Assembly: GCA_001938485.1 (NCBI GenBank)
Contig: MQRK01234723.1
Span: forward strand, 1-64,000
Reading direction: 5' to 3'
Length of the DNA stretch: 64,000 nucleotides
Source of the DNA: Girardia tigrina
Lineage: Eukaryota
Shown here: piece after piece, positions 178-64,000 of the stretch
How the letters are laid out: each line of letters begins with the position of its first letter
Numbering within the stretch: position 1 is the stretch's first letter
Notes under the pieces: generated by a model
The model's database searches: none
Seen by the model: the letters and a program-made list of their open reading frames with translations, nothing else
What the model was told of the DNA's origin: nothing
Program-made: the position numbers and the translations under genes

Positions 178-621
178 ATGAATATTTCAAAAAGAATCCA
201 AAAAGAAGTTCAATTTCTGAAAAACGAGACGCAGTTTAGCGCAGTTCCTGATGAAACGAATATGATGTTGTGGAGGGCGACCATTAAAGGACCTCCAGAT
301 TCTCCGTATGAGGGAGGAATATTCAATTTGGACATGACATTACCAGAAAATTATCCGTTTAGTCCTCCAAACGTACAAATGAAAACTCAAATATTTCATC
401 CAAATATAAATGAAAGTAGAATCTGTGTGGATATTCTAGGTGGAGGATGGTCAGCTATATTGAATATTCAAAAGGTTCTTCTTTCAATAGTGTCCCTCCT
501 CAACGATCCTAACCCTAGGAGTCCATTAAACAGTAAAGCTGCTGATTTATATGTGAAAGATAGGAATAAATATAACGAGACTGTGAAGGAATGGGTGGAA
601 AAATATGCTCGTGAAGAATAG
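178..621 (+). CDS. Ubiquitin-conjugating enzyme E2 (UBC4/UBE2D-like), intronless, 147 aa
   Basis: UBC fold motifs WRATIKGPPDSPYEGG, YPFSPP, FHPNI..RICVDIL (HPN triad plus catalytic Cys), SLLNDPNPRSPLN; length typical of a class I E2. Confidence 0.95.
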   Translation: MNISKRIQKEVQFLKNETQFSAVPDETNMMLWRATIKGPPDSPYEGGIFNLDMTLPENYPFSPPNVQMKTQIFHPNINESRICVDILGGGWSAILNIQKVLLSIVSLLNDPNPRSPLNSKAADLYVKDRNKYNETVKEWVEKYAREE

Positions 622-5800: not shown

Positions 5801-6115
5801 ATTTACTTCATCGAATATTTAGCTTTATATTTAACAATTAATATAATACTTATATTTGTTATACTATCATAAGTTTTAAAGCAAGCAATTTGCAGATATT
5901 TTGATTGTAATTATCTTTTTCTTTTTTAATTTATTTTCTAGAATTTTTATTTCTTGAAATACAATTTACGATTTTAAAATACAATTGTTATTATTTGAAA
6001 TACAATTTTAAAATTTGAAATTCAATTGTTATTCTTTGAAATACAAGTTGAAATGGTGTATTCGAAAGCATTTTATATTTATAAACTAAAGTTTCTAAAT
6101 CTAAATATTTTAATA

Positions 6116-6246
6116 TAAAATCAAAAACGCCATTAAAATCAAATTTTATTGTCGCAATTGTTGTTAATTCAGCCTGAAGATGGTGGAAAATCCACCGAAA
6201 TATATTGCGACAATAAAATTTGATTTTAATGGCGTTTTTGATTTTA
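6116..6246 (+). ncRNA. Penelope-type minimal hammerhead ribozyme motif inside a 43-bp perfect inverted repeat
   Basis: CTGAAGA-T-GGTGG(AAAAT)CCACC-GAAA-TATA-TT at 6174-6206; arms 6116-6158 and 6204-6246 are reverse complements; degenerate copy at 41749-41781. Confidence 0.7.
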
Positions 6247-8438
6247 ATAAAAAATTGTCGTTATTTTTTAAATTTTAATATAAATTAGTTTATTTAATAA
6301 AAAAAGAAATATTTTGCATTGAAGTATGCTTAATAAAGTAAACTTGATATTCAAAATATTTTAATTTATTTACCATTCTGAAAATTGTTTTTTGTATGTC
6401 CTACGCAAATGCAATCAAAAGGCTCAAAGGATCAATTCGAATTATATTCATTAATCACAAATCAAGAATTTAAGTAAACACATTTTTATTGAGTTATTTA
6501 ATAAAATCATTTATTAATACTTGTAATTGTGTTTTAAATAATTAATTCTTCTCGCAAGATTTTTTTTCTTTTTCAAATACATCTGCCACTCGGAATTTAC
6601 AGATTCCTTACAAGTCATTTATTTGCAATATATAAAATTCAAGTTTGGTTTAATTTATACTTTAAAAGTGTCTCTTAAAAAATAAATCAAATATTTCTTT
6701 GAACTTTTGAAACATTTTTTTCTTTTTATCGTTCATTTTTGTTATTTATAAATTTCAAAGTAATCAAAATTAAATTATTAAATTAACGACAAATTCTTCA
6801 CGAAGAAAGTGTAATGAAATATTTGGAAAAGTTCCTAAAACTGAACTGGAGACCCTCTAATCATTCCGATGACTTAAAAATGGAAATAAAAGTTTTTCAT
6901 GAGATCAAGAAAGAATTATTTTATTTTTAAAAAAAAACTTTTAAATTAATTCTGAGTTCGAGATATATTTGAAAAATAAAATATAATATTATATAATTTC
7001 GAAGTACAAGAAATACAAATTTTGAGAACATTCAATAAATAAATAATAATATTTTGATTGCAAGCTTAGTGTAAAAAACTTTCGTTAATATTTATTAAAT
7101 GTATTTGTAGAAACACAAAGCGACCAAATCCAAATAAATATATTTCATCCCTCTCTTAATTCTTTCTTGTACAAATTCGTCCTCTCCTTCCAAGTCACAT
7201 CCACAGAACAAAGATTTATTTCCAGAATAAAATTATTTAAAAAACATTATTGTAATATTTGTAAAATTAAATTACCTAAAACCAAAAGACTTACTCGGTC
7301 AATAATATTTATATTTACAAAATACAAGTAAATACACTATAAATAAAATACAAAATTGTGTAATGCTGCGGTTTTATATACAATAAAAAATATTTAAATT
7401 AAAATAATATTCGATAATCAGATTTAACTATATAAATTAATTATAAATAATTTTAACATGATTGTAAATAGCGATTTTTGTTGGAAAAGTTTTCTTATAA
7501 CAAATAAAATATTTCTTTCTTTTTAAAATTTTTATAATTCTAATAATAATATTTTTTTCATATTTAAAAAATTTTTGTAATGTGATAATTTTCTATGTTT
7601 TGAAAAGATTTAAATTAAAAAAATACCGATAAATCGGATTTAATTTAAATAAAAAATAATTATTCAACAAAATTGAAAAATTATTAATAGTAAATTTAAA
7701 AATTTAACATTTAAGACACAAATGGCTTTTTCGACTATTTTTTGGTACCTGATGAATTACTAATTTATTAAAAAATCAAACATCATATAATTACAATTTA
7801 TAAATAATTAATAATATATTTATAAATCATATTTTAAATAAAATTATTATAATAAAATATTTGCATTACTTAACATGTTTATAAATAGCAAATTTTTAGG
7901 CAATTTTATTCTAAATAAATAATTATTTCTTATATTTGAAATATTTACTAATTATTATTATTGTACATGTTTTAAAAACTTTGTAAATTTTCTTTAATAA
8001 AATTATTTTTACTAAATAAACATTTTGTAAGTAATCGAAATATTTTTATATTATAGGATTGCATCCTCCACAACTACATGACAAATATTATTTGTTTGTA
8101 ATAAAATTGTTGTAAGTTTAAATATGTTAATTTTTAATTCAAATATTAAAATAAATTTTAAAATATTTTTAATACATTTAATAATGATTTTATTAATAGG
8201 AAATTGACTAAAATAATCTTTAAAATTCTTATCTTAAAAGACATTGTCAAACAATTAATAATTTAATATTTTATTTATTCGTATTATATTTTATTAAAAG
8301 TTATAAATAAAATTTATTACAATTAATAACAGAAAATTACACAATAAATAAATTAAATTAAAAATTTTAACCAATCTTCATAATTTAAAAAAACATTTGA
8401 AATATAAAATTATAATTTTTGTTTAAATAATAATTAAT

Positions 8439-9956
8439 ATGCAAATTATTTTAATGGAAGAAATTTCCCATCAAACAATGAATGATAAATATGAATGTCA
8501 AATTTGTCTTTCGCGTGTTTCCGACAAAGTGATGTTTGATACTTGTAACCATTCATTCTGTACGTACTGTGCCGGGTCTTGCATCCTCCATGATGATAGG
8601 TGTCCTTTCGACAGATTGAAAATTGCATCAATGACGTATTACAATAACTCGAATGGGGAAACAATTACCAAAAGTATTATTGATTGTGCAACAGAAAAGT
8701 TTATAGAAACAATTAACTTCATTCTTGATAAAATTTGTTGGAAATTGAAAGAAAGTTGTTTGTTTATGGAATCACAATCGGAACAATATGGAGAACAAAT
8801 AATTGAAAATCTGAACGAATTAACCTCTGTTTCCGACGAGAATATCTTTGAACAATCTCAAAAATGTATTCGAATGTGCGACGTTTTAAATGAAATGAAA
8901 ATTGATATAAAAAACGAAAGAGGAGTATTTAATAGAGAATGGAGAGACATTAGTATTCTTCGTAGAAAAAGTGACAAAAATATGTTTCACAATTACTTTG
9001 CCTCTGATGATTGTAAATTTACTATATGGCGTTGTTTTGAAATCATATATCAAATCGATACATACAAGAAAGAATCCCTTCATTTCATAGGAAACTATTT
9101 AAAATGTACCGGCAACAATCTCCATCAAAGGAGTTTTAGAACATATTTTGAATACGTTTTAAATAATTATAGATTGATAGAGAAAATAGTTCGTTCGAAT
9201 AGACCACTTATTAACGTATGCCTTCTGTGGATCCTTAAAAATCCGTGGTGCGATGTTCGGGAATACGTCAGATGTCCTGAGAACAGTTGCGTGATCTGTT
9301 GGGAATCTTCAGAGACATCGAAACTAGCTACATGTGAAGTTTGTGGTACCGGACTTTGTTGTAATTGCACGAAGAATTTCCTTATAATTGACGACAAATG
9401 TTTGCTAAAATGTGATGGTAGATTAATAAGGAAAGACGGAGGTCATCGTGATCCTAATGTAAAAGATATTGAAGAAATGATCAATTCATACAAGGATGAA
9501 TATTTGCAATTAATATTGGACATTTTAGGTCATGTTTATGAAATAATGAAGGGGTTATCGAAAGATGAACGTTCAACTGAGAACTTCTTTACTCAAGTGA
9601 GGGACATTGATGACGTATACAAGTCTCTGTCGTTCAGTGATCATCAAGATTGTCTGTCAATTAATATGATTTTGACGAATACGTTAATGACATCAAAACT
9701 TTTATTAGATTTGATCAGTTTGAAAATGCTCATCTCATTATCTTTTCAGCCATTATCTACGTCTGATCATATCCAGACAGTTAGGCAGCATATGGCACCA
9801 TTAACATTTAAAACGGAGATATTGATAAAAAAGACAAAGAATTTGAATTTCGAAGAATCTCTGAAAACGGAGTACTCGACTGTTATCGAAGAATTGCGAG
9901 ATATTTTAGAAAAGGTATTTCAATTGCTTAATATAAAAGGACATAATTTTCAATAA
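8439..9956 (+). CDS. Intronless protein with two RING-type zinc fingers, probable E3 ligase, 505 aa
   Basis: N-terminal CQIC-x12-CNH-x2-CTYC-x10-CPFD RING; second RING-like cluster CVIC..CEVC..CCNC..CLLKC mid-protein; long open frame in very AT-rich DNA. Confidence 0.85.
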   Translation: MQIILMEEISHQTMNDKYECQICLSRVSDKVMFDTCNHSFCTYCAGSCILHDDRCPFDRLKIASMTYYNNSNGETITKSIIDCATEKFIETINFILDKICWKLKESCLFMESQSEQYGEQIIENLNELTSVSDENIFEQSQKCIRMCDVLNEMKIDIKNERGVFNREWRDISILRRKSDKNMFHNYFASDDCKFTIWRCFEIIYQIDTYKKESLHFIGNYLKCTGNNLHQRSFRTYFEYVLNNYRLIEKIVRSNRPLINVCLLWILKNPWCDVREYVRCPENSCVICWESSETSKLATCEVCGTGLCCNCTKNFLIIDDKCLLKCDGRLIRKDGGHRDPNVKDIEEMINSYKDEYLQLILDILGHVYEIMKGLSKDERSTENFFTQVRDIDDVYKSLSFSDHQDCLSINMILTNTLMTSKLLLDLISLKMLISLSFQPLSTSDHIQTVRQHMAPLTFKTEILIKKTKNLNFEESLKTEYSTVIEELRDILEKVFQLLNIKGHNFQ

Positions 9957-11949: not shown

Positions 11950-14858
11950 TTATAAAAAAAACTTTTTAAAAACCACGTTTTTCTTGCGGACTAAAAAGAA
12001 GAAAATAATTTTTGGGTAGAGATATGTTGATTATGATATAGGGTATAGAGAATCCGGGAAGAAAAAACTTTGAATTAGATATAATACTCTATCACGAATA
12101 ATAATTCAGAAAAATTAAAATAAAATCAAACATAAAGTAAATAAAGAACAAAAACTTTCTAAGTTAGTTTCATTACTTATGATCTAGTTTTCAGAATTTT
12201 ACTTAACAAAACTGAAGTTACAAACTTATTTGAAGACTAAAAAGTAGAAAATAATACTTTTATAAAAAAACGTGATTATGATTTTATTTTAATTTTTCTG
12301 AATTTATTTTAATTATTTTAGAATTTATGTAACATATTTTTCTATTTATTTTTATTTATTTATTATTTTATTTTAATTATTATTTATTTAAACGTGGGGC
12401 GCATTTTGTATATATTATTTATTTTATTAATTCTTACATTTGTCTTGTAGTATTTGCATGCTTGTTTATAAAGAATTATGGAAGATTTCTCGAGAAATAC
12501 CAAGACTCTAAGAATTCTTAGACACAACTATAAAAAAAATCAATCAATTTAATAACAGAACTTTTCGTAGTAATATCAATCGAAAATTTTTAAGTAGATG
12601 AATAGAAGGGATTCGCTGTTATGTAACTCGCTGTTTTGTAATTCGCTGTTATGAGGATACGCCGAATAGAATTCTATAAAATTTCACTAGTGTCAAGATA
12701 ATAATTATAAGAGATAATTTTTGGAATTCATTAATGAAGTTTCATATATTTTTTGGGTTTTTTGTAAAAGGAAAAATATTTGGGGAACTAATACAGGATT
12801 TCATATCGAAAGTTCTGATTTACCAAAGATTTTATATCGCAAGCTTCTTACACACTCCTTTGAATATCGCTTGAAAGATACTCATTGCTACTACTAATGA
12901 AGTTTTTAAATTCATTTGACCATTTCTTTAAATTTTTTATTCCGTATTTAATTTGTTACTAATTGAGAGGTTAAATAGTTTTCAATGCTTATGCTTATTA
13001 AAATTATTAAGTATAATATATAAATATGGTGCCATTAAGAATGTANNNNNNNNNNNNNNNNNNNNNNNNNNNNNNNNNNNNNNNNNNNNNNNNNNNNNNN
13101 NNNNNNNNNNNNNNNNNNNNNNNNNNNNNNNNNNNNNNNNNNNNCCCACGTTTTTCGTGATAGAGTATTATATCTAATTCAAAGTTTTTTCTTCCCGGAT
13201 TCTCTATACCCTATATCATAATCAACATATCTCTACCCAAAAATTATTTTCTTCTTTTTAGTCCGCAAGAAAAATGTAGCTTTTAAAACGTTTTTTATAA
13301 AAGTATTATTTTCTACTTTTTAGTCTTCAAATAAGTTTGTAACTTCAGTTTTGTTAAGTAAAATTCTGAAAACTAGATCAAAAGTAATGAAACTAACTTA
13401 GAAAGTTTTTGTTCTTTATTTACTTTATGTTTGATTTTATTTTAATTTTTTTGAATTTATTTTAATTATTTTAGAATTTATTTAACATATTTTTCTATTT
13501 ATTTTTATTTATTTATTATTTTATTTTAATTATTATTTAATTTATTTTTTTAATTTTTATTTTTTTGAGATCTCTCCGGTAATGTCGCGATTTTTTACAT
13601 GTTTTTGTATACTTTTTCTATTTTTTCGAATTTATTTTAATTATTTTTGAATTTATTTTACATACTTTTCTATTTATTTTTTATTTTATCAATCATTATT
13701 TAATTAATTTTTCTAATTTATTATTTTTTGAGCTCATTCTCCATTGTCGTGATTTTGTTTTGATATTTTTGTATACTTTTTCGATTTTATTGGGATTTTT
13801 TGAATTTATTTAAATTATTTTTCTATTTATTTTTTATTTTATTTATATTATTATTTCATTTAATTGTTTTTAATTTATTATGTTTTGAGCTCTTTCCGGC
13901 ATTGTCGCCTTTTTTCAATATTTTTGGAATTCTTAAACATTTTTTTAGTTTTTTTAAAAAATTCTATTTTATTATTTATTATTTTATTTATTTATTTAAT
14001 TTATTGTTTTAGACTTCATCTGGTTCAGCCATGATTTTTTTTAATATTTTTTGAGTTTATTTTAATTTTTCTGAATTTATTGTAATTATTTTAGAATTTA
14101 TTTAATATATTTTTCTATTTATTTATTTATTATTTTATTTTAATTATTATTTAATTTATTTTTTTTAATTTTTTGAGATTTTTTTTACATGTTTTTGTAT
14201 ACTTTTTCTATTTTTTCGAATTTATTTTAATTATTTTTGAATTTATTTTACATACTTTTCTATTTATTTTTTATTTTATCAATCATTATTTAATTAATTN
14301 NNNNNNNNNNNNNNNNNNNNNNNNNNNNNNNNNNNNNNNNNNNNNNNNNACTTTTTCTATTTTTTCGAATTTATTTTAATTATTTTTGAATTTATTTTAC
14401 ATACTTTTCTATTTATTTTTTATTTTATCAATCATTATTTAATTAATTTTTCTAATTTATTATTTTTTTGGACAATTTAAAATATTTTTTCTGATTTATT
14501 TTAATTTAATTTTTCTATTCATTCATTCATTAATTTTCTGGACAACCTGCTTATCGTCGCAATTTTTCGATTATTTTTATTAAAAAAATAATTTTAACAC
14601 ATCATTGATGTTGGTTAGTGTTCACTTTCATAAACATCCGCCATCTTGTTTTTTCCATACAAAATTTATTAATCAAATTGTGCGCAAACTAAGTACTTAA
14701 GAAGCATAGAAGTGCTACAATATTGAATTGTTAGGTGGAATATGGTTTCATACAAAGTTTCAGAAAGATAGGATTTTAAAAAATGGTCGAAAAATCGATC
14801 TCAAATTTTGTCCCGGACACACAAACAAGAAAGCAAGTTAAGAAAAACGTTTTAAAAA
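11950..14858 (-). mobile_element. Helentron-associated (HINE/DINE-1-like) non-autonomous element with central tandem repeats, inserted in the Tc1
   Basis: Minus-strand 5' end TTTT..ACGTTTTTCTTAACTTGCTTTCTTGTTTGTG homologous to 32606-32650; ACCACGTTTTT sub-TIR at 11972-11982; internal inverted duplications 11945-12270 vs 13150-13460; subtracting it leaves a ~1.35-kb Tc1. Confidence 0.6.
13430..14520. repeat. T-rich degenerate tandem repeat array
   Basis: Repeated GAATTTATTTTAATTATTTT(A/T)GAATTTATTT..TTTTCTATTTATTTTT units. Confidence 0.85.
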
Positions 14859-30100: not shown

Positions 30101-33100
30101 CTTTAGTCAAGTTCTGATTTAGTCAGCAATTGACCAGTATTAATAAGTGTGACTCTCGTCCCTAAAATATCACTCTTACTTACTTTGTTTCTTTGCGACT
30201 AGTAAAGTTATTATATAGATAAGATTGAATAATCTCTATTGACATAGAATAGCGATTTCCCCCTTGGGACAAAAGAAATAATTAGATAAAATACAATTCA
30301 TTGAAGTACCCTAACAGGAGATAGTGAGTCAAAATAAGATTTGAAACCACTAGCATTCTATCGCCATCTAATCCCATATGAATATTAATTTGAACAACGT
30401 TATAAACTTATCATGTAGTTATATATAATCAAGCTAGTTTAAAATAGATCATGAATGGACATCGACAGATTTAGCTTAAGTTATAATAAATTGCCCTGTT
30501 AACCGCTATTACTAAGAAGTGAGCTGTAACTATGAACTACTTATATTCTATTGATTCCCACTTTTGAAGTACTCAGTAGTGTATTTATTAAAGAATATTT
30601 ATTCAATAAAATTGTTGTAATATAAACTAATTAGATGTGTCATGGAATAACGAAATGATATTATTCTTCAATCCTTGCAACGTGCAACAGTCTCAGATGT
30701 TCAGAAACAGAATTATTTTCTATAGCACAATTTCACTCTTACACGACTGAAAATTTTACGAATCCCTCATTCAGCCCTGCAACACGGGTTCATTCAGATG
30801 AATATCCGACATCCCTAGGATCAGTAGCGTTGCTAGACGAGTGCGGGGCGTGCAGACCGCACCGGGTGACACAATCTTAGAGGGTGTCAACAAATGAAAA
30901 ATACATCGCGGAAATAACCCTGAATAAATAACCTGACGTTATGCTAAGGTTAACTAAAAAACACATGTTAATCGGAGTCCATGGCATCAATTTCCAGTTA
31001 AGAAATATTATTACGTCATTTCATGTTGATTTGACTTTACCAGTAATTGAATGCTATGATAAAGTAACACACACGTTCGTTGACTTGTGAAATCATTCAA
31101 TCGGTGCGGTACATAGCAGCTGTAGATACCCTACAAAATTCATTTACAATACATGATGGACGGATTGTGCTCCACTGCCTCCACACTCAGAATAAATCTG
31201 GAGGGGTGACACCGTGACTTTACAGCACTGGGTGAGACCAACCATAGCGACGCCACCGCCTTACACAACACGGTTTCATTCAGATGAATATCCGACAACC
31301 CTTACATAACACGGTTTCACCCATACGGCATATATAATTATCTATTATCTATATACCACGTTGTAAGATTTATAGATATGCTAAACCATTCTGACAATCT
31401 TGTGAGATCTTGAATGACATTTACAACGCCTCATCTCTTTATGTGAGACCAACTATATCATCTCTTATCCTTCATATTTAACAGAGATACGAAGCGAATG
31501 GAAATAAAATATCATTAGGTGGTTATAAATTATAACCACAAAATGATACTTTATTATATGTTATCCCGGGATCCCGTGATTGAAACCCATAGTTATAATG
31601 CAGACTATAAACTCATGATCGTACAAAATATTTTGCAGGATAAATAAACGACAAGGATTTTAGTAACGAAATTTAATAATACAATAGATAAAAAAGTGAC
31701 CGATTTGCAGTTCTGAATGGTAAAGTAAACATTAACAATAACGAAACAACAAGCTTAACTGAAACAAGTTTTAAAAAATTATGTAAACACGCGAACTAAA
31801 AGGACTGGAGTTAAGGAATGTTACTTGTACAATCCAAAGATGGGATACTTGCTCAATCCCGAAGGAGGGTCTCCAGAATGATGCAAACTGCCATCTAACT
31901 ATAAAACCTTCAGAATACGTTCGTGACGGATCGAACAACATATAATGTCAATTAGATAAATTTAATCACTCAATAAAACAATTTATCCCTACTTTATGTT
32001 TCAATGTGACATTTATGGACCAATATTAAATAAGTACGGAGTACCAAATGTACCTCTTAACCATTTTCATTAAACCTTTTCTTTACCTTTATCTTTGAAA
32101 TATATATTGTCGTTTTCGATAGAAATGTAAATTATTCCTAAATAGCACAAATCATGGGAATATATAAGTAAAGGAAATTGAAATGAATATAAATCTCGAT
32201 CGAATATGCACGCCAATATCAAGAGGCCGTGTTCGAGAATAGCGCATCCCCGTAGGTGCATGTATCAAATGAGTAACCCGGTATACGAAGACGACTTTTG
32301 CAAATCCTTTCATAACACTAGATAAGATTATCAGATATGAAAGATTACTTCAATAGATATCCCCGCGTGTCTCTTGCAATTATTGAAACATGACCTATTT
32401 ACAAAGGAATGAAATATCTGCGTTGGTACTCATGTTTTGACGGATAGGACGCATTTGACAGAAGAGATTATGCATTGATGACTTATTATTCATGTAAATA
32501 TTAAAGAGCAATATCTGAAAATTTGTTTCCTAAAGAATGCCTCAGTCGCTAAAACATTAGAATCATTTTTTATTGAATAATGATTATGCATACAATGTTA
32601 AATAATTTTACCACGTTTTTATTAGCTTGCTTTCTTGTCTGTTTGTCTGTCTAGAACAAATCTTGCGATTGATTTTTCGACCACTTTCAGTCATCCAATT
32701 CAGCTGAATTTTTTTATAAAGGTTTGCTTCCGATGACAATACAATTTGATAAAAAAAATAATTTTCTCTAATTTTTGTTGCAAAAAACCACTTACGATTA
32801 TCTACAAATTTATACACTGTATTAAATAGCAATCTTTTCGTTTATTTTCATGAATGAAGTTTTATACAGGCTTGCTTCCGATGACNNNNNNNNNNNNNNN
32901 NNNNNNNNNNNNNNNNNNNNNNNNNNNNNNNNNNNAAGCATTACCAATGCACTAAAAAGAGGAAAATAATTTTTTTCTAGACATGTGAGAAATTTTATAC
33001 CTAACCAAAAACGTGGGGCATAGAAATGATAGATTGTTACTAAAAAGCAGTAAAAACGAAATAGCAGTTACTAATAGCAGTAATTCAGAAATCCGCCCCA

Positions 33101-36100
33101 CGTTTTTGGTCAGGTATAAAATTTCGCACATGTCTAGAAAAAAATTATTTTCCTCTTTTTAGTGCATTGGTAATGCTTGAAAAACGTGGTTGTTTTTATA
33201 AAATTTTTTTATTAATAATATTATTATCATATATAAATACCCTTTATATAGACGTAATAATGTATCTTTTACATATAACAATTCTTTATGATCCTTTAAA
33301 TATGATCCTTAGCAATAAATTATCTGATTCCTCTTAAACTGCGTACGATCCTTTTTGGAGAATAATTATTTGTTGAAAAAATAAAAATTAATCTTACGTC
33401 CCTGACTCTGAACAATGAGATCAGTTATATTTGGCTATTTAATGCCGTTTAGATTTCAAAAAAGGAACAAAAGGCAATTTACATTTCTTAAAAACCATTT
33501 TCCCATCATATGATCTAAATAATAAAACCTCTCAATAATTTCTAAACCGATTACAGAGAATTCGAAAATCTCATTATTCTACTTTCATTTTTCCAATTTA
33601 AATAAACGTTCATTAATATTGGGCCACAAATTGATATAAAGATTTTAAATGTGATTTTTTTAAATATTAATAAAATAAAATTTACAATATTTGTTCCATT
33701 TAAACAAATAAAATACCAAATATTTAATTACACTATCTAGTCATGAGCGTTTGAAATGAAGTGCTGCAGAAGGATGCTGAAGATTACGGGGAAAAAAGAA
33801 GACCAGCGACTTTGTCTGGAGAGAGTGACAGAAATAATAGGTAAAAGATCGGAATCAATAGACGAGTTCATCAAGAAAAGGAGACTGAAATTCTACGAAC
33901 ATCAGATAAGAAAACAAACACTAGCAAAGGTTATGATTGAAGGAAGATTTGAAGGAGAAAGATTTAGAGTAAGACCAAAAGTCAATGGACAATAACTTAA
34001 AAGAATTGAGTGAATTCAACATGGAAGATCTGAGAAGAGAGACTACAAAAAGAGAGATGTATCAAAGACTTGTACATAATTTGGTGCAGCCACGGCCGAA
34101 TGGCAAAGGTCCAGAAGAAGAAGATCTAATCATTAGGTTATGTAGTATACCTCGGGAAAGATGATGTATGTACTTATGGTGTCCGTATTTTTAATCACTG
34201 GACGATTTATCACATTTTTGGTTTTATCGTGGATTCATCACACTTTAATTTTCTCGTGGATTGATGAAGTCCTAGAATTGTATTTATCAATGGGATCGGA
34301 GTACGAACGGTGTGACGTTGTATTCCTCCAACTAAGGAACTGATAGAATTTTCTTCAATTTAGACAAACGATTAAGGTAAATAGTAAATTTACTTCGATG
34401 ACAGATGTTGATACCTTGATATTATTATTAGTATCTTTATTAACACATTTAGAATTTTTTAAGTTTGATCGGTAAATTTTTCAATACATGGCTTTGAATA
34501 GCGATTTGTATTTAGTAAACTGATCACAGTTTAGATTATAAAAAGAAAATAATGTTTCAATTCTGTCTAATCGCTTATCAATTTTTTGGAAGCCTTATCT
34601 TCAAACAGGACTTGGTAACATGACTGAAGATATTACTACTTTAATCAATAATAATTAACGACTAATGTAAATTTAGGCTGAATATAGCGATAGATAATTC
34701 AATAAAATTAATAACAATAATTTAAAAAAAATTCTGTGAAATATGTAGCATGTTCAATAAATACGCGAACTTAGTAAACGGGGAAACTTTGAGATGAAGT
34801 TTGCCACGTACAATGGATGTGCTGTTCGCGACGGATCTACTGAAGTATTAGTAACTGTTAGGTCATCTGAGTAATGGAATAGTTAACGTTGCGATTATTT
34901 TTTCTAACTTTGTTTTTTCTATTATGGATGATCGAAATTGATTAGCTGATAGAACAACTCCACATCAAATTCTTTATGAAACCTGTGAAAACTTACAGAA
35001 AATTTATGTTATTTCGATGGATGTTTATGAAGACTAAGTATTTAAGAGGATCAAGCGTTTCTGTGAAGATTGTGAAAACTGCAAGGATGATTATAGGTCA
35101 GAATGACCATTTACTTAACTTTTTCAATGAAAAAAACAAACTTATACAATAGCTTATGCTTTACAATGACCGATTCACTGTGTGAGGAATATTTGGTGTG
35201 TGGATGTTTTTGTGTAGTGTTTGCATGTTTAAATGTTGTGTGTTGATTTGGGATTGTGCCTCTCCTAATTAGATGGATGATTAATATTTAATTTCTTATA
35301 ATCTGAAACTAATTTATTTAAATTTAGATTTAATATTCAAATTTTTAATTTTTATTATTGCAACTTTTAAAAAAGTTTATTGATTTTATTTTTGTAAATT
35401 TTTAAATAATTAAAATGAAATTAATGTTTAAAAATGACTATAAAAATATTTTATTTCAGCCAATAAAATTTAAATTAAATATTTTTAAATAAAATAATCT
35501 TCTCAAGTATAGTTCATATTATAATGGGAGATATTGAAAATTGATTGATGGATCTTAGTGAAAGCAATACTGTTGATCATCATAGAGATGATAAGAAATG
35601 TGAATGTAATAAATGTTCTGTAAAATGTGTGAGTTCTCTTAACACACTGTACAGATGATTACTGATGAACTAAATTTGAGAAAATTGTCCCTGCACATTA
35701 TTCTTTGAAAAATATTTGGGATTGAGAAAATTGTGTTCAAAATTTATCCCAAAGTTACTAACATCTAACTAAAAGGAAAAAAAGTACAAATGCTACAACG
35801 ATTGAAAAAATGCATCTCAAACTCGCAGTTTTTAAAAAGGTTATTACGAATAATATTTCATATTTCTAAGAGTACAAACATTGAGCTGAAATCAGAGCAG
35901 AAAATGGAAAGCAAAATATAAACCACGGTTCAAAAATGTCAAAAAGCCAATCAAAACTGCTAGTTGGTTTGGACATTCATGCTATTGTGCATCATGAATT
36001 TCTCCCTGAAGGACAAACAGTGAAAGCTGAAGTCTACCTGAAGTCTATCAAGCGTATGAGGGATCATGTGTGTCGTCTGTGACGACATCTGTGTGATGGT

Positions 36101-58460: not shown

Positions 58461-60213
58461 ATAACTTAGTATCTGAACTTTATCAAAATTGAATGAATAT
58501 TATTGACAATATTTTAATATACACAATCTTACCCAAGTTTGGACTGACTAGAAAAAGTCGTTTTTTTGTTTTAGTCGATTTTATTATAGTTCTCAAAAAA
58601 TTTTATGTAACGTAATTTTATAGAACTAAATTTCATTAATGACTTTAAAGCGTTGCATTTTATTTCTCTTCTATTTTTGTAGCAAAATGTGATGACTTTT
58701 AAAACATGAAAAAATTGATTATGTTAAAATTTATAACATTGAATGACTTCATGTATTTTTTTAGCTTTAATCGGTTTTTACTCGATGAATCTTTTCTTTG
58801 AAATGTGAACCAACGACCTCGATTGTATTTAGTCGTCGATTGTCTCTCAAGTAATAATAAATATTGATAGTTAAGAATATTTGATACTTGAAATACAATC
58901 GCACATTTCAAAAGATTTTAATCAATATTACTGCTTCAAAATAATGCTCAAAGTTTTGAAAATGACAAGAGAAAATCAAATATCGAAATAAAAACGTTCT
59001 CAGATAGTAATTTTGAATAAAATCGGTCATTCGTAGCCCAAAAATTGCACAAATACTGGGAGTTTCACAGAAAGGGGTGGTCGCGTTGCGATTCCGTTTT
59101 AATTCATTTGTTAAAAATAAAATCAATATTTAAATAATTTAATTAAAATAATTAATTAAAATTAANNNNNNNNNNNNNNNNNNNNNNNNNNNNNNNNNNN
59201 NNNNNNNNNNNNNNNATATATAAGTATATATGTATATGTGTATATATATATAAATAAATATACATATGATCATCGCGTTCATATGGTTTTGCGATGATTG
59301 CTGTAAAACCAGCGCAATGTCCAAGCATTATTTGAAGTCAAAAATATTCTAAATAAATTAAGAACTCAATACAAGCCGATCATTCAAGCGGGATTAAAGC
59401 CACTTCCNCCAGCTACAGTTAAAGCGTTTAATAATACACCGAATTCAGATAATAAATATCAAAGGATTAATTTTGGAGAAAACGGAATACCTTATTCTCC
59501 AGTAAAAATAGAAAAATCTATCGAAAATGAAAAACATAAACCAGTAAATACGTTTCTACACTCAAATGGAAATGAGTCTCCCACCAAAGATTCCAAATCT
59601 AATGGATCTCTTAATCAAATCAATTTAACTTTGCATCACGAAAATTCAGCTGTGGGGAAATCAGTTTTCGTTCCGAAACTAGCGTCATTTTTTACTGTTC
59701 ATCGCAACGTAAACCATTCTGATCATTTTATAATTGGTCGACATTGTGAGCCTCATTTTTGTTTTTGTGTGTGTAATGAATGTGTCATTGGATTGATTTT
59801 TGACAAATGAAATTGAGGAATTTGCTTGTGTGTGTTTGATTTGGTGTTAATGTGAATACATTTCACAGTTTTTAAAAAACAAAAAAAAATTTGCAGTTCA
59901 ATTCTTTCAATTTTTGTAGTTTTTCAATCATGCAAAATAAATAAATCAATTCTGTTTTGTCAAATAAAAATTTTGAAAGTTTCGCTTGAAAAACAATCGT
60001 TGTACAATTTCTTCTTGAAAATGCTTCAAGATAATATTAAATGGNNNNNNNNNNNNNNNNNNNNNNNNNNNNNNNNNNNNNNNNNNNNNNNNNNCGAAAA
60101 TTCAGCTGTGGGGAAATCAGTTTTCGTTCCGAAACTAGCGTCATTTTTTACTGTTCATCGCAACGTAAACCATTCTGATCATTTCATAATTAATCAACAT
60201 TGTGAGCCTCATT

Positions 60214-60404
60214 AGTAGTGAAAAAATACAGAGGGACAGGACACGTACCCAAAAAACTTTTTTAATTCACCTACCAGATTCATCAAAAATGAAGGCTTTG
60301 AACCTGTTTCACAGCTCCAAACCCTTCATTTTGTGATGTAGCTGGAGAGTAAATTAAACAGTTTTTTTGGGTATTTCTCATATCCCCTGTATTTTTTCAC
60401 TACT
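60214..60404. repeat. Imperfect 191-bp terminal palindrome
   Basis: AGTAGTGAAAAAATACAG / CTGTATTTTTTCACTACT, TACCCAAAAAA / TTTTTTGGGTA, AAAATGAAGG / CCTTCATTTT, centre CTGT-TTC-ACAG. Confidence 0.9.
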
Positions 60405-60641
60405 TACATTCAATATACATCTAAAATATACCCAAAACACAACTCAAAAACTAAAACTAAACTAGTCTAAAAAACAGACTAAGAGTATCACAAAGAGTTG
60501 ATATATTCAAAGGATAGTACTCTCGAAGAGTTGAAATCTAAGATGGGGTATCAATAAAAGCAGAGTCTACATTTTAACAAAGGATAGTCGTAGAGTTTTA
60601 AAAATGAAGTCTACATCTTAACAATTTTTATCTATAAAAAT

Positions 60642-61229
60642 ATGATCGATAAACATTTTTGTGTCACATGTTCTAAATTTATTTCAAAAACTAATAAAGC
60701 TAAACATGAAAAGACACAAATACATCATACAAATTTAATTTTAAAACAACAGATTGATAAAGATTTTCAAGAAAAGACTGGTGGAGATCTTCAAACTTTA
60801 TCAAAGAAGTTACCAGATTTTCCATGGTCTAAATATAAAGGAGAACATCATCTACCAAAATATTCATATGCAGGACCTGGAACACGTTTAGATATNNNNN
60901 NNNNNNNNNNNNNNNNNNNNNNNNNNNNNNNNNNNNNNNNNNNNNCCAAAATATTCATATGCAGGACCTGGAACACGTTTAGATATAAGGTTAAACGAAA
61001 ACGATCAACCAAATCCAGGTGAAGAACCTATCAATCGAGTTGATGAAGCAGCTCTAAAACATGATATAGCATATAGAAATAATGACATTCGTTCAAGACA
61101 AAAAGCAGATATTGATCTAATTCAAGATTTAAATGAGATCAAGAAACCAACACTTGGTGAGAGACTAGGAAGATTACTTGTTAAAAATGCAATGAAGTTA
61201 AAGATTATGTTTGGAGGTGAAATAGATGA
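60642..61229 (+). CDS. Partial second copy of the ZnF-PLA2(-integrase) gene, broken by assembly gaps
   Basis: Near-identical to 61515-62050 but 15 codons shorter in the linker; sequence duplicated across the N gap at 60896-60945. Confidence 0.7.
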
Positions 61230-61514
61230 NNNNNNNNNNNNNNNNNNNNNNNNNNNNNNNNNNNNNNNNNNNNNNNNNNATACTCGCTACCGGTTTGAAC
61301 CCGAAGGCGCTCCGATGCACACACAACTTGTTGATGTGCGCGGAGGAGACGCGTCTGTTCCCATAAGCAATAAGAAGACAGAGAGTAATCACCGAGGGAA
61401 GTATGAAGGGATACAAGATAAGTGTGAGTTGCCGTTTAACTCAGGAAAGCGGATGGGGGCTCAGGGCCAACGAAGGTGTCTTAAAACGGAGGGAACACGA
61501 CATATAAAAAAAAT

Positions 61515-62906
61515 ATGATTGATAAACATTTTTGTGTCACATGTTCTAAATTCATTTCAAAAACTAATAAAGCTAAACATGAAAAGACACAAATACATCA
61601 TACAAACCTAATTTTAAAACAACATATTGATAAAGATCTTCAAGATAATAGTGTTGGAGATCTTAAAAAACTAACTTTAGAACATAATACTGGTGGAGAT
61701 CTTCAAACTTTATCAAAGAAGTTACCAGATTTTCCATGGTCTAAATATAAAGGAGAACATCATCTACCAAAATATTCATATGCAGGACCTGGAACACGTT
61801 TAGATATAAGGTTAAACGAAAACGATCAACCAAATCCAGGTGAAGAACCTATCAATCGAGTTGATGAAGCAGCTCTAAAACATGACATAGCATATAGAAA
61901 TAATGACATTCGTTCAAGACAAAAAGCAGACATTGATCTAATTCAAGATTTAAATGAGATCAAGAAACCAACACTTGGTGAGAGACTAGGAAGATTACTT
62001 GTTAAAAATGCAATGAAGTTAAAGATTATGTTTGGAGGTGAAATAGATGAGAATATAGAAAATGATCTCGAAGAGAAGCAAAGTATGAAACTAGTTACTG
62101 AACTTCATAAAGAATATAGAAAACCCAAAATATTTCTAAAAGTTAAAGTGTTTAACAAAGATGATATTTGGGGAGCAGATTTAGTTGAAATGAAAAAAGA
62201 TGATGATTATAAATATATCTTAACTATTATAGATTTATACACAAAATATGCATGGGCTTTCCCATTAAAAAACAAAACAGGAAATACTATAAGAAATACA
62301 TTCGAAGAGTTATTCGAACAAGAACCAGATAGAATTCCTAAAAAACTATATGTTGATCATGGATCAGAATTCTATAATAAAACATTTTTAGATTTCTTAA
62401 AACTAAACAATATAGAAATATATTCAACATTCAATCAACCAGATGAAAGAAGTCAAGGACCATCACATAATCCAGTTATAGAAAGATTCAATAGAACATT
62501 AAAAAACTATATGTGGAAAGAGTTTACAATACAAGGAAATCAAAAATGGTTAAAGATATTACCAAAGTTATTAGATTATTACAATCATAAAGTTCATAGA
62601 ACAATCGGTGTTTCTCCTGAAGAAGCAAGTGATAATCCTGATTTAATAAAAGAAAGAGTAGAACAAAATAATAATACAAATGATGATATGATAGATATCC
62701 AAAAATTTAAAGTAGGTGATCATGTGAGAATCTTTAAATGGAAGAATAAGTTTGAAAAAGGTTTCACACATAAGTGGTCTAAAGAAGTCTTTGTTATAAG
62801 TGATGTTCATAAAACAAAACCTATAGTCTATTCAATTATTGATCTAAATGGAGAGAAGATATTAGGAAGGTTTTATAAAAATGAATTACAAAGATCATCT
62901 TTTTAA
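61515..62906 (+). CDS. Zinc finger - parvovirus-type phospholipase A2 - retroviral-type (rve) integrase fusion, 463 aa
   Basis: CVTC..HEKTQIH; LPKYSYAGPG, PINRVDEAALKHDIAY, RQKAD; WGADLVEM, IDLYTKYAW, YVDHGSEF, VIERFNRTLK, YNHKVHRTIG, FKVGDHVRI, GRFYKNELQ. Confidence 0.92.
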   Translation: MIDKHFCVTCSKFISKTNKAKHEKTQIHHTNLILKQHIDKDLQDNSVGDLKKLTLEHNTGGDLQTLSKKLPDFPWSKYKGEHHLPKYSYAGPGTRLDIRLNENDQPNPGEEPINRVDEAALKHDIAYRNNDIRSRQKADIDLIQDLNEIKKPTLGERLGRLLVKNAMKLKIMFGGEIDENIENDLEEKQSMKLVTELHKEYRKPKIFLKVKVFNKDDIWGADLVEMKKDDDYKYILTIIDLYTKYAWAFPLKNKTGNTIRNTFEELFEQEPDRIPKKLYVDHGSEFYNKTFLDFLKLNNIEIYSTFNQPDERSQGPSHNPVIERFNRTLKNYMWKEFTIQGNQKWLKILPKLLDYYNHKVHRTIGVSPEEASDNPDLIKERVEQNNNTNDDMIDIQKFKVGDHVRIFKWKNKFEKGFTHKWSKEVFVISDVHKTKPIVYSIIDLNGEKILGRFYKNELQRSSF

Positions 62907-64000
62907 ATCATCTCAACAGTAAACATCTTACCATTTTTTATCAGGATTTGACAATGCTTCTCTTCAAGAACTAAACAAAAAGCCTTTGCTTTAAATTCAC
63001 TTGTTTTTGAAATGTGAACTGAGATATCACATCCATTTACGGATAGTTTTTCATCTTGTGCAGATACATCAAAACAGAAGATGGAGTATAGATTCTTAAA
63101 ATCTCGAATGTTTAACTGAGCAGTTTCAATTTGAAATTCTTTACACATTTTAAGATAAGCGAGATAGGGTTCCATTTGATAATTCTTTGAGGAATCAAAT
63201 TCCATTTTATTGATAGGATAGTAAGAGTTATTAATCTGTACTCTTAAACTCGTGATTTGATTAGTACCATCTTTTTGTATAAATAAGGAGTTATTTTTCT
63301 CAATTGAAGTGGTTAAGTCTTTGAAAGCTAGTAAAACATATCTTGGTCTAGAACTGGTTAAACTTACTTTCCAACTTATGTTTGTACTTCCTGGTGTAAG
63401 ATCAATGGTTGTTCCATTTCTATTTAAGAAGTTGACTGATATAGGTTTATCTTTGTTCAATCTTTCTAACAAAGCAACTTCACTTCTGGGGTTAACTGTT
63501 AACTCTGGAACCCATAACTCTATTAAATCAAGTTCAACTTTACCTGTAGGTTTTACAGCAGTAGCACCCTCACCTGTACCTGTACCATATAAAATATCTG
63601 CGGGATTCAATTTTCTATTTATGATGATGTTGATAGGTAAGAGAAATAAAACTCTGTTATAATTTTCTAAGAATCCAAATAACTTATTCAATGGGAATCT
63701 TCCTTCTGATGTATATGATTTATCAGCTTTTAGTTTATCATCATTATTATATAAAGACTTTCTGATTTTAAAACCAGTATTATCTGTGGTTCCTTTTTCA
63801 ACATCTGGAACCCAACCTATAGATTCACCTTCTGGAGATGCTTTGTTTAACATGATAAAATTTAACATGCTTGAAAAGTCACCACAGTTATGAATATTTT
63901 CAATTTCTGATGAACCAAGTTGTAATCTCATATTTTCAAACATCCTTGGAAAGAAGTTGTTTTCAAGTGTAACATTTGAATCAGCAACAAAGCCAGATAG
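62903..64000 (-). CDS. Double jelly-roll major capsid protein of Polinton/adintovirus type (5' end beyond window)
   Basis: Frame open to the window edge (..TLENNFFPRMFEN..); PLNKLFGF, IELWVP, RPRYVLLAF, VQINNSYYP, IFCFDVS motifs; convergent with the integrase, stop codons overlap. Confidence 0.8.
   Translation of the reverse strand, partial: LSGFVADSNVTLENNFFPRMFENMRLQLGSSEIENIHNCGDFSSMLNFIMLNKASPEGESIGWVPDVEKGTTDNTGFKIRKSLYNNDDKLKADKSYTSEGRFPLNKLFGFLENYNRVLFLLPINIIINRKLNPADILYGTGTGEGATAVKPTGKVELDLIELWVPELTVNPRSEVALLERLNKDKPISVNFLNRNGTTIDLTPGSTNISWKVSLTSSRPRYVLLAFKDLTTSIEKNNSLFIQKDGTNQITSLRVQINNSYYPINKMEFDSSKNYQMEPYLAYLKMCKEFQIETAQLNIRDFKNLYSIFCFDVSAQDEKLSVNGCDISVHISKTSEFKAKAFCLVLEEKHCQILIKNGKMFTVEMI

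What the first reader, a model, noticed from the sequence alone, without database searches (positions are those of the whole stretch)
60214..60404. Polinton-like terminus that is itself a ~90-bp imperfect hairpin
Seen: the first 191 bp start AGTAGT, end ACTACT and are self-complementary along their whole length, with bulges. Known: Polintons begin with AG/AGT repeats and have TIRs pairing the two ends; self-folding terminal hairpins characterise parvoviruses and hairpin-ended linear replicons. Inference: the element may use hairpin-primed replication or resolution, a second parvovirus-like trait alongside the PLA2.
Basis: partly seen in the sequence, partly recalled or inferred. Interest (0 to 1): 0.78.

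Follow-up and report, generated by a model that had tools for sequence, protein, structure and literature searches.

The report
Fold-back tip of an animal Polinton
The outermost 191 bases of a virus-like jumping element (Polinton/Maverick) in an animal genome fold back on themselves into a long, mismatched hairpin that a second, diverged copy also carries; whether this hairpin starts DNA copying or is a tolerated leftover of a copying error is still open.

Summary
The hairpin is real. 60214-60404 folds at -49.5 kcal/mol (z -12.6); its arms share 78 of 93 aligned bases and end in a perfect 18-bp stem. It starts exactly where an empty-site paralogue is interrupted, with the Maverick (AGT)2 end motif, and runs without a gap into a PLA2-rve integrase gene; a jelly-roll capsid gene follows beyond scaffold gaps. 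This is the left end of a group-2-type Polinton. It is not a stand-alone MITE here, because host sequence does not resume after it. In run X1 one contig repeats it exactly with another flank, and a second, about 10% diverged copy has the hairpin joined to the same inner DNA. That copy is in the same orientation, not a flop isomer; it shows one compensatory pair (chance about 0.1). The right end, the TSD and the replication gene could not be seen. PLA2 is ordinary in this group and gives no support. Hairpin priming from terminal palindromes was proposed in a 2026 preprint for protist virophages/PLVs; I found no report for animal Mavericks. Most likely an inherited snap-back duplication of a protein-primed end (0.45); a working hairpin origin stays open (0.3).

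The parts
59639..59757 (+). Empty-site paralogue of the target (host repeat), uninterrupted at the CTCATT position
   Evidence: 97% identical to 60095-60213; runs X1, X2 and X3 each show empty-site continuations as loose ends at 60213
60095..60213 (+). Filled-site left flank (host repeat); 60208-60213 (CTCATT) is the candidate 6-bp target site duplication, unconfirmed
   Evidence: Sequence; the right end was not available
60214..60404 (.). 191-bp imperfect terminal palindrome (fold-back tip of the Polinton left end)
   Evidence: exact copy in X1 record 1 and a diverged copy in X1 record 2
60214..60231 (+). Outer 18-nt end motif starting with (AGT)2
   Evidence: 16 of 18 identical to a motif found in inverted orientation on both sides of a PolB-bearing Polinton gene block (L095/L096); (AGT)2 end motif per PMC8097293
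60387..60404 (-). Inner, inverted perfect copy of the 18-nt end motif
60405..60641 (.). Non-coding subterminal DNA (probably the rest of the TIR and the integrase upstream region), with short tandem repeats
   Evidence: Joined to the hairpin in both X1 records 1 and 2; no notable fold
60642..60895 (+). 5' part of the PLA2-integrase gene, contiguous with the hairpin and cut by a 50-N scaffold gap
   Evidence: 93-96% identical to the 5' part of the 61515 ORF
61280..61508 (.). Different upstream sequence in front of the second integrase copy, between scaffold gaps: a mosaic of copies
61515..62906 (+). 463-aa PLA2-like domain + rve integrase fusion
   Evidence: Pfam PF08398 E 7e-10 and PF00665 E 1e-13; 1450 homologues
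62903..64000 (-). Double-jelly-roll major capsid protein, 5' end beyond the window
   Evidence: Pfam PF21738 E 3e-26; 25% identical to the capsid of L090

Best explanation
This is the left terminus of a group-2 (Alpha-type, PLA2-bearing) Polinton/Maverick integrated by its rve integrase into a host repeat (shown, except for the TSD). Its outer 191 bp are an inverted duplication of the ancestral ~95-bp end, which is inherited as part of the terminus (shown for two copies). Inferred origin: a snap-back (template switch) during strand-displacement copying from the end made a mini-unit with a valid AGTAGT end on both sides. That unit became the element's new tip, for example by integrase-mediated insertion into a Polinton end followed by use of its outer end. 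Inferred working: the outer (AGT)2 still serves protein-primed initiation and integrase recognition. The foldback can pair the 3' end of a displaced strand, but it is tolerated or auxiliary rather than the obligatory primer, and its arms drift apart.
For: The junction coincides with the empty-site break and the Maverick end motif. The hairpin is joined to the same inner DNA in two copies with different flanks. Arm divergence (16%) exceeds copy divergence (about 10%), so the duplication is older than the split of the copies. Copy divergence in the hairpin (15 listed substitutions + 2 indels in 153 nt) is no lower than next to it (6 + 2 in 86 nt). In the part of the stem where both partners are seen, the second copy closes 4 mismatches and opens 2 pairs, as expected from decay in both lineages. 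No flop orientation. A relative with a 16/18 end motif has PolB and no foldback. Of the longer related loci inspected, 6 carry a PolB-type ORF and 1 an SF1 helicase.
Against: The copy with 15 mismatches looks young (an identical terminus occurs with another flank in X1), so the imperfect hairpin survives in a lineage that spreads. There is one compensatory pair (60297/60321), with chance about 0.10. The outer 18 bp are perfectly paired, and the strand whose 3' end would self-prime forms the stronger hairpin (-58.0). Joining a snap-back unit to the genome needs a second event for which there is no direct trace. The PolB-bearing relatives are distant (about 40% integrase identity); the replication gene of this clade is unknown.
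Confidence: 0.45

Rival explanations
1. Functional hairpin origin or telomere. After excision or strand displacement the bottom strand's 3' ACTACT end folds back on the inner copy and primes synthesis. A nick or cruciform cut (host nuclease, or an element nuclease such as the EndoVII-like HNH domain in relatives' PolB) opens the closed end again and restores a blunt AGTAGT end for the integrase. Mismatches would be kept, as in poxvirus telomeres.
For: The geometry fits: a perfect 18-bp stem ends exactly at the 3' end, with template continuing inward. The hairpin persists across about 10% divergence with one compensatory pair. Precedent: terminal palindromes in all complete members of five virophage/PLV subtypes, tied to non-pPolB replicons (10.64898/2026.07.28.741278, section 7). 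Group-2 Polintons often replace pPolB by helicase/primase genes. PF02945 hits in 5 of 5 long PolB-type ORFs tested that span the region, only 1 above the Pfam cut-off.
Against: No flop isomer in the one informative second copy (a 50% chance even if isomers exist), and no second isomer of record 1 among X1 contigs, which drop rare variants. No head-to-head junction was listed. The hairpin is not more conserved than adjacent DNA. (AGT)2 is explained by protein priming. No replication gene was visible.
Confidence: 0.3
2. The foldback is selected for another cis role on DNA: a cruciform that helps excision, a packaging or protein-binding structure, or a local panhandle that re-creates a duplex origin for protein priming without pairing to the far TIR.
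For: Two further contigs (X1 depth about 280; X2 depth about 23) match only the region around the apex, about 60281-60359, which hints that the apex is the best-kept part (inferred from depth bins and distances to contig ends). Mismatched hairpins serve packaging in vaccinia (PMC8956199, abstract).
Against: The apex-only contigs were seen only as table rows. No binding or activity data exist.
Confidence: 0.13
3. An independent MITE-like foldback that happens to sit next to a headless Polinton, or an assembly join.
For: The window holds other MITE-like foldbacks (32936-33178, 6108-6253). No X1 contig bridges this window's host-to-hairpin junction. The element is a mosaic across 50-N gaps.
Against: Host sequence does not resume after the hairpin. 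Depth over the inner arm equals records 1 + 2 only, both continue into the same subterminal DNA, and no loose end is listed at 60404 (15 of 76 loose ends shown). The hairpin-to-integrase stretch has no gap.
Confidence: 0.07
4. The unit works as an RNA hairpin (small-RNA precursor or VA-like decoy).
For: The RNA fold is strong (-81.7, z -13.7).
Against: Any palindrome folds as RNA. There is no strand bias of wobble-type mismatches (2 G-T type on +, 3 on -, of 15). No credible Rfam match (one hit, E 0.12, far below its gathering score and outside the hairpin). Its limits match the DNA end, not a transcript.
Confidence: 0.05

Closest known systems
Group-2 Maverick-Polintons / Alpha adintoviruses (Polintoviricetes)
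   Same: (AGT)2 end motif, rve integrase, PLA2-like domain, double-jelly-roll capsid, animal host (Ig I-set exon in the window), insertion at a clean site
   Different: The end motif is repeated in inverted form 173 bp inside, making the tip a 191-bp foldback. The words 'hairpin' and 'palindrom' do not occur in the vertebrate and nematode Maverick papers checked, nor 'hairpin' in the adintovirus paper. PLA2 is fused to the integrase. pPolB, ATPase, protease, right TIR and TSD were not seen.
Terminal palindromes of Halocafeteria seosinensis endogenous virophages and PLV subtype 4 (bioRxiv 10.64898/2026.07.28.741278)
   Same: A palindrome inside the TIR next to the target site of an rve-integrated element; the authors propose the same hairpin-priming model and an accidental-origin alternative
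   Different: Protist host and other virus classes; 52 nt in the figured subtype and found with at most 4 mismatches allowed, against 191 bp with 15 mismatches and 4-5 gaps here; linked there to non-pPolB replicons, unknown here
Parvovirus/AAV terminal hairpins and poxvirus flip-flop telomeres
   Same: A long self-paired end with a paired 3' terminus; mismatches and bulges as in vaccinia (PMC8956199, abstract)
   Different: No Rep/HUH or resolvase gene seen; no flip/flop pair seen; unbranched rather than T- or Y-shaped (parvovirus shapes recalled); integrated with an integrase-type end

Membership tests
Polinton/Maverick | rve integrase | tested here: met
   PF00665 E 1e-13 in 61515-62906; its 5' part is contiguous with the hairpin
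Polinton/Maverick | Double-jelly-roll major capsid protein | tested here: met
   PF21738 E 3e-26; linked to the terminus only across scaffold gaps, but adjacent to the integrase, and the closest homologues of both lie on contigs of the same lengths (6660 and 16244)
Polinton/Maverick | (AGT)2 or (AG)3 end motif at the host junction | tested here: met
   motif per PMC8097293
Polinton/Maverick | TIRs at both ends and a 6-bp TSD | not testable with these tools
   The right end lies outside the window and no genome is held; record 1's 30-nt flank was not displayed
Polinton/Maverick | pPolB, packaging ATPase, protease | not testable with these tools
   Beyond the window; the closest relatives' contigs could not be fetched (searches found none)
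Group 2 / Alpha adintovirus | PLA2-like domain with a group-2-type capsid | tested here: met
   PF08398; association; no tree was built, so the group label rests on gene content
Hairpin-primed replicon (parvovirus- or poxvirus-like) | 3'-terminal foldback able to prime | tested here: met
   In silico only:
Hairpin-primed replicon (parvovirus- or poxvirus-like) | Flip and flop isomers among copies | tested here: inconclusive
   2 of 2 orientable sequences (records 1 and 2) are in one orientation; too few
Hairpin-primed replicon (parvovirus- or poxvirus-like) | Nicking or resolving enzyme and a non-protein-primed polymerase | not testable with these tools
   The replication module is not in view
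Independent MITE | Unit flanked by a TSD with host sequence resuming on both sides; many stand-alone copies | tested here: not met

The most novel reading that the evidence does not exclude
A lineage of animal Polintons has moved from protein-primed ends to long, mismatched, poxvirus/parvovirus-like hairpin ends. It keeps the (AGT)2 motif only as the integrase site, primes DNA synthesis from its own folded 3' end, and re-opens the closed end with a structure-specific nuclease. This would be a living intermediate between TIR-ended Polintons and hairpin-ended DNA viruses, inside an animal genome.
Probability: 0.25. Interest if true: 0.8.

Novelty: new variant of a known kind. Interest (0 to 1): 0.45.

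Why it matters
Polinton replication has been inferred from gene content and end motifs rather than observed. A long imperfect foldback at a canonical (AGT)2 end in an animal extends the terminal palindromes just reported in protist virophages/PLVs to animal Mavericks. It gives three sharp tests that need only sequence data: isomer orientation, the replication gene, and covariation across families. If the hairpin works as an origin it bears on how hairpin-ended DNA viruses arose from protein-primed ancestors. If it does not, it shows how snap-back products can replace a Polinton's ends.

Tried and rejected
No whole genome is held, so the right end, TSD and replication genes were not reached.

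IMG/VR scans with the window's integrase, its capsid, the closest capsid homologue and a capsid alignment found no relatives. The exact 18-mer gave 1 hit in a phage-like contig.

A self-comparison of 91 fetched loci gave inverted matches of 40 nt or more in 12; none begins with (AGT)2. L085 (525 bp) and L039 (220 bp) are inverted duplications of coding DNA at contig ends, probably chimeras. L044, L069, L073 and L089 are internal or simple repeats. L060/L086 are end overlaps of one contig. L045, L064, L087 and L091 were not examined further. Most loci do not reach an element end, so this blank is weak.

An apex pattern in prokaryote genomes gave 26 short chance matches. The promoter scan was at chance level (the bacterial model is not suited). 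No RNA holder was listed. Run X6 laid 1 read and is uninformative. The ESM Atlas gave only leads below 0.9 to PLA2/rve clusters. Earlier-findings look-ups by sequence and place were empty.

Literature: searches found no report of a long terminal foldback in animal Polintons. The 2006-2007 founding papers and Repbase entries were not read, and no supplements were opened (those of bioRxiv are closed); any of these could mention such ends.

Full report
Observation. Window 60214-60404 starts AGTAGT, ends ACTACT and folds into one unbranched hairpin (ssDNA -49.5 kcal/mol, z -12.6, 0 of 200 shuffles). The arms share 78 of 93 aligned bases with 5 gap columns, the outer 18 bp are perfect, and pairing stops at both limits. 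Adjacent non-coding DNA does not fold unusually. Chance pairs of the same end motifs in IMG/VR never have paired arms (0 of 11). The host genome does contain other foldbacks; one in this window scores higher.

Context. The host is an animal (Ig I-set exon; Tc1/mariner remnants); no genome is held. The 119 bp left of the hairpin have a 97% identical twin at 59639-59757 that reads straight through CTCATT|TTTG, whereas the filled copy reads CTCATT|AGTAGT. This fixes the left junction. After the hairpin the host sequence does not resume. Instead 237 bp of non-coding DNA lead, without a gap, into the 5' part of a gene whose complete copy (61515-62906) encodes a PLA2-like domain fused to an rve integrase; a convergent double-jelly-roll capsid gene follows. 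Three 50-N gaps and near-identical duplicated pieces show that the scaffold mixes several copies, so only the hairpin-to-integrase-5' link is contiguous. (AGT)2 is the commonest Maverick end motif and is read as the jumping-back signal of protein priming (PMC8097293, passages). PLA2 is typical of Alpha/group-2 elements (PMC8502044, passages; 10.64898/2026.06.19.733378, section 5), so it is no evidence for parvovirus-like replication.

Other copies. Four runs were laid on 60095-60895. X1, which may be the window's own source and is then not independent, holds record 1 (307 nt, depth 240). It matches 60214-60490 with no difference but has 30 other bases before AGTAGT; these were not displayed and could be the right flank of this insertion or another site. 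Record 2 (308 nt, depth 111) aligns over 60252-60490 with 25 substitutions (21 listed) and 4 gaps; its last 69 nt did not lay. It is a second family member in which the hairpin is joined to the same inner DNA. Depth over the inner arm equals these two records, and none of the 15 displayed loose ends (of 76) lies at 60404, so a high-copy stand-alone MITE is not indicated. Summed depth over the PLA2 coding part is some hundreds of times higher or more (up to 5e5; not a copy number), so many related Polintons must have ends less than 80% like this one. X2 and X3 show the empty site; X2 also has one contig over the apex region. Against my reading: no X1 contig bridges the window's own host-to-hairpin junction (depth bookkeeping). 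The tool warns that records are filtered, so this is unresolved.

Is the hairpin maintained? Of record 2's 15 listed substitutions in the hairpin, 9 lie where both partners are seen: 4 close mismatches, 2 form a compensatory T-A to A-T pair, 2 open pairs and 1 is in a bulge. Of the other 6, whose partner is unseen, 2 would close and 4 would open pairs against the window's arm. One compensatory pair arises by chance about 10% of the time, and divergence in the hairpin (17 events in 153 nt) is like that next to it (8 in 86 nt). The data fit selection on pairing or slow decay of an older, more perfect palindrome about equally. Record 2 is not the inverted isomer: it shows 6 of 26 expected substitutions and none of 7 expected gaps. 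With two orientable sequences this is weak evidence against flip/flop.

Comparators. Of 8 IMG/VR matches to a degenerate 18-nt end motif, 2 lie in inverted orientation on either side of one Polinton gene block (L095/L096, same contig as L090). That block encodes capsid, ATPase, PLA2, rve and a 1294-aa protein with PolB motifs and an endonuclease VII-like domain. Its end has no inner inverted copy (best 11 of 18) and only short local stems (z -3.9). Its flanks are themselves inverted copies of each other, so no TSD could be read. The outer 18 nt are thus a conserved Polinton end signal that can occur without a foldback. EndoVII-like hits appear in 5 of 5 long PolB-type ORFs tested over that region (1 above the cut-off); HNH insertions in pPolB are known (10.1101/2023.08.22.554363, passages). 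None of 91 fetched loci showed a comparable terminal foldback, but few reach an end and the closest relatives could not be fetched.

Mechanism. Shown: a Polinton left end whose tip is an inherited inverted duplication. Inferred: the bottom strand's 3' end would be fully paired with template ahead of it (-58.0 kcal/mol), so it could self-prime. I judge it somewhat more likely (0.45) that the tip arose by snap-back copying of a protein-primed end and is tolerated or auxiliary, because the motif is a protein-priming signature, relatives combine it with PolB, orientation is fixed so far and the arms drift at the local rate. A working hairpin origin with nuclease resolution is the main rival (0.3). 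It gains weight from the report that group-2 elements often lose pPolB and from the Halocafeteria preprint, which found terminal palindromes in virophage and PLV subtypes with non-pPolB replicons and proposed this model (10.64898/2026.07.28.741278, passages and section 7). Mismatched hairpins have a packaging role in vaccinia (PMC8956199, abstract), which supports a third reading (0.13).

Novelty. The element is a member of a known class, and terminal palindromes with proposed hairpin priming are in print for protist elements. I found no report of a long imperfect foldback at the (AGT)2 end of an animal Maverick in eight searches or in term look-ups in twelve papers. The founding papers, Repbase and all supplements were not seen. 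Earlier AI notes of this scan mention a 50-nt palindromic viral tip in a chytrid and giant palindromic Polinton satellites; these are unchecked leads. Verdict: a new variant of a known kind, real and testable, mechanism open; interest 0.45.

Noticed in passing
window 60281-60359: One X1 contig (depth about 280) and one X2 contig (depth about 23) lay only on the region around the hairpin apex. The X1 contig's laid part is about symmetric around the loop and has no laid neighbour at its 60338 end. It may come from further families or from mini-elements that share the apex.
   Followed up: partly
window 60797-60895: Summed contig depth on the PLA2 part is 1e5-5e5 in X1 against about 350 on the terminus, which suggests a very large Polinton load in this host.
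   Followed up: no
window 60509: The X1 contig carries one more copy of a 16-bp unit than the window; a 22-bp tandem array lies at 60564-60624.
   Followed up: no
window 32936-33178 and 6108-6253: MITE-like foldbacks (84-nt arms 98% complementary, next to a gap; 52-nt arms 92%).
   Followed up: no
window 11950-13457: Large inverted duplication (arms of 152 and 167 nt, 95-99%) around an N gap, beside an A+T-rich repeat array at 13400-14540; possibly an assembly effect.
   Followed up: no
L090:86-3970, L060:11469-15431, L044:8563-12642, L045:6648-10424, L091:5976-9863: PolB-type proteins of related Polintons carry an endonuclease VII-like (HNH) domain, more widely than the nematode and oomycete cases noted in the paper passages read.
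   Followed up: partly
L073:1-8752: Tandem repeat of a PIF1/SF1 helicase gene plus a related integrase, with no capsid gene among the ORFs listed; resembles a stand-alone replication-integration module.
   Followed up: no
L095/L096 (one IMG/VR contig): A whole Polinton gene block sits between 1.09-kb inverted repeats, of which about 770 bp lie outside the AGTAGT motif; either an assembly echo of one flank or an unusually extended end.
   Followed up: partly
window 178-621 and 8439-9956: Intron-less host-like genes: a divergent ubiquitin-conjugating enzyme and a RING protein.
   Followed up: no
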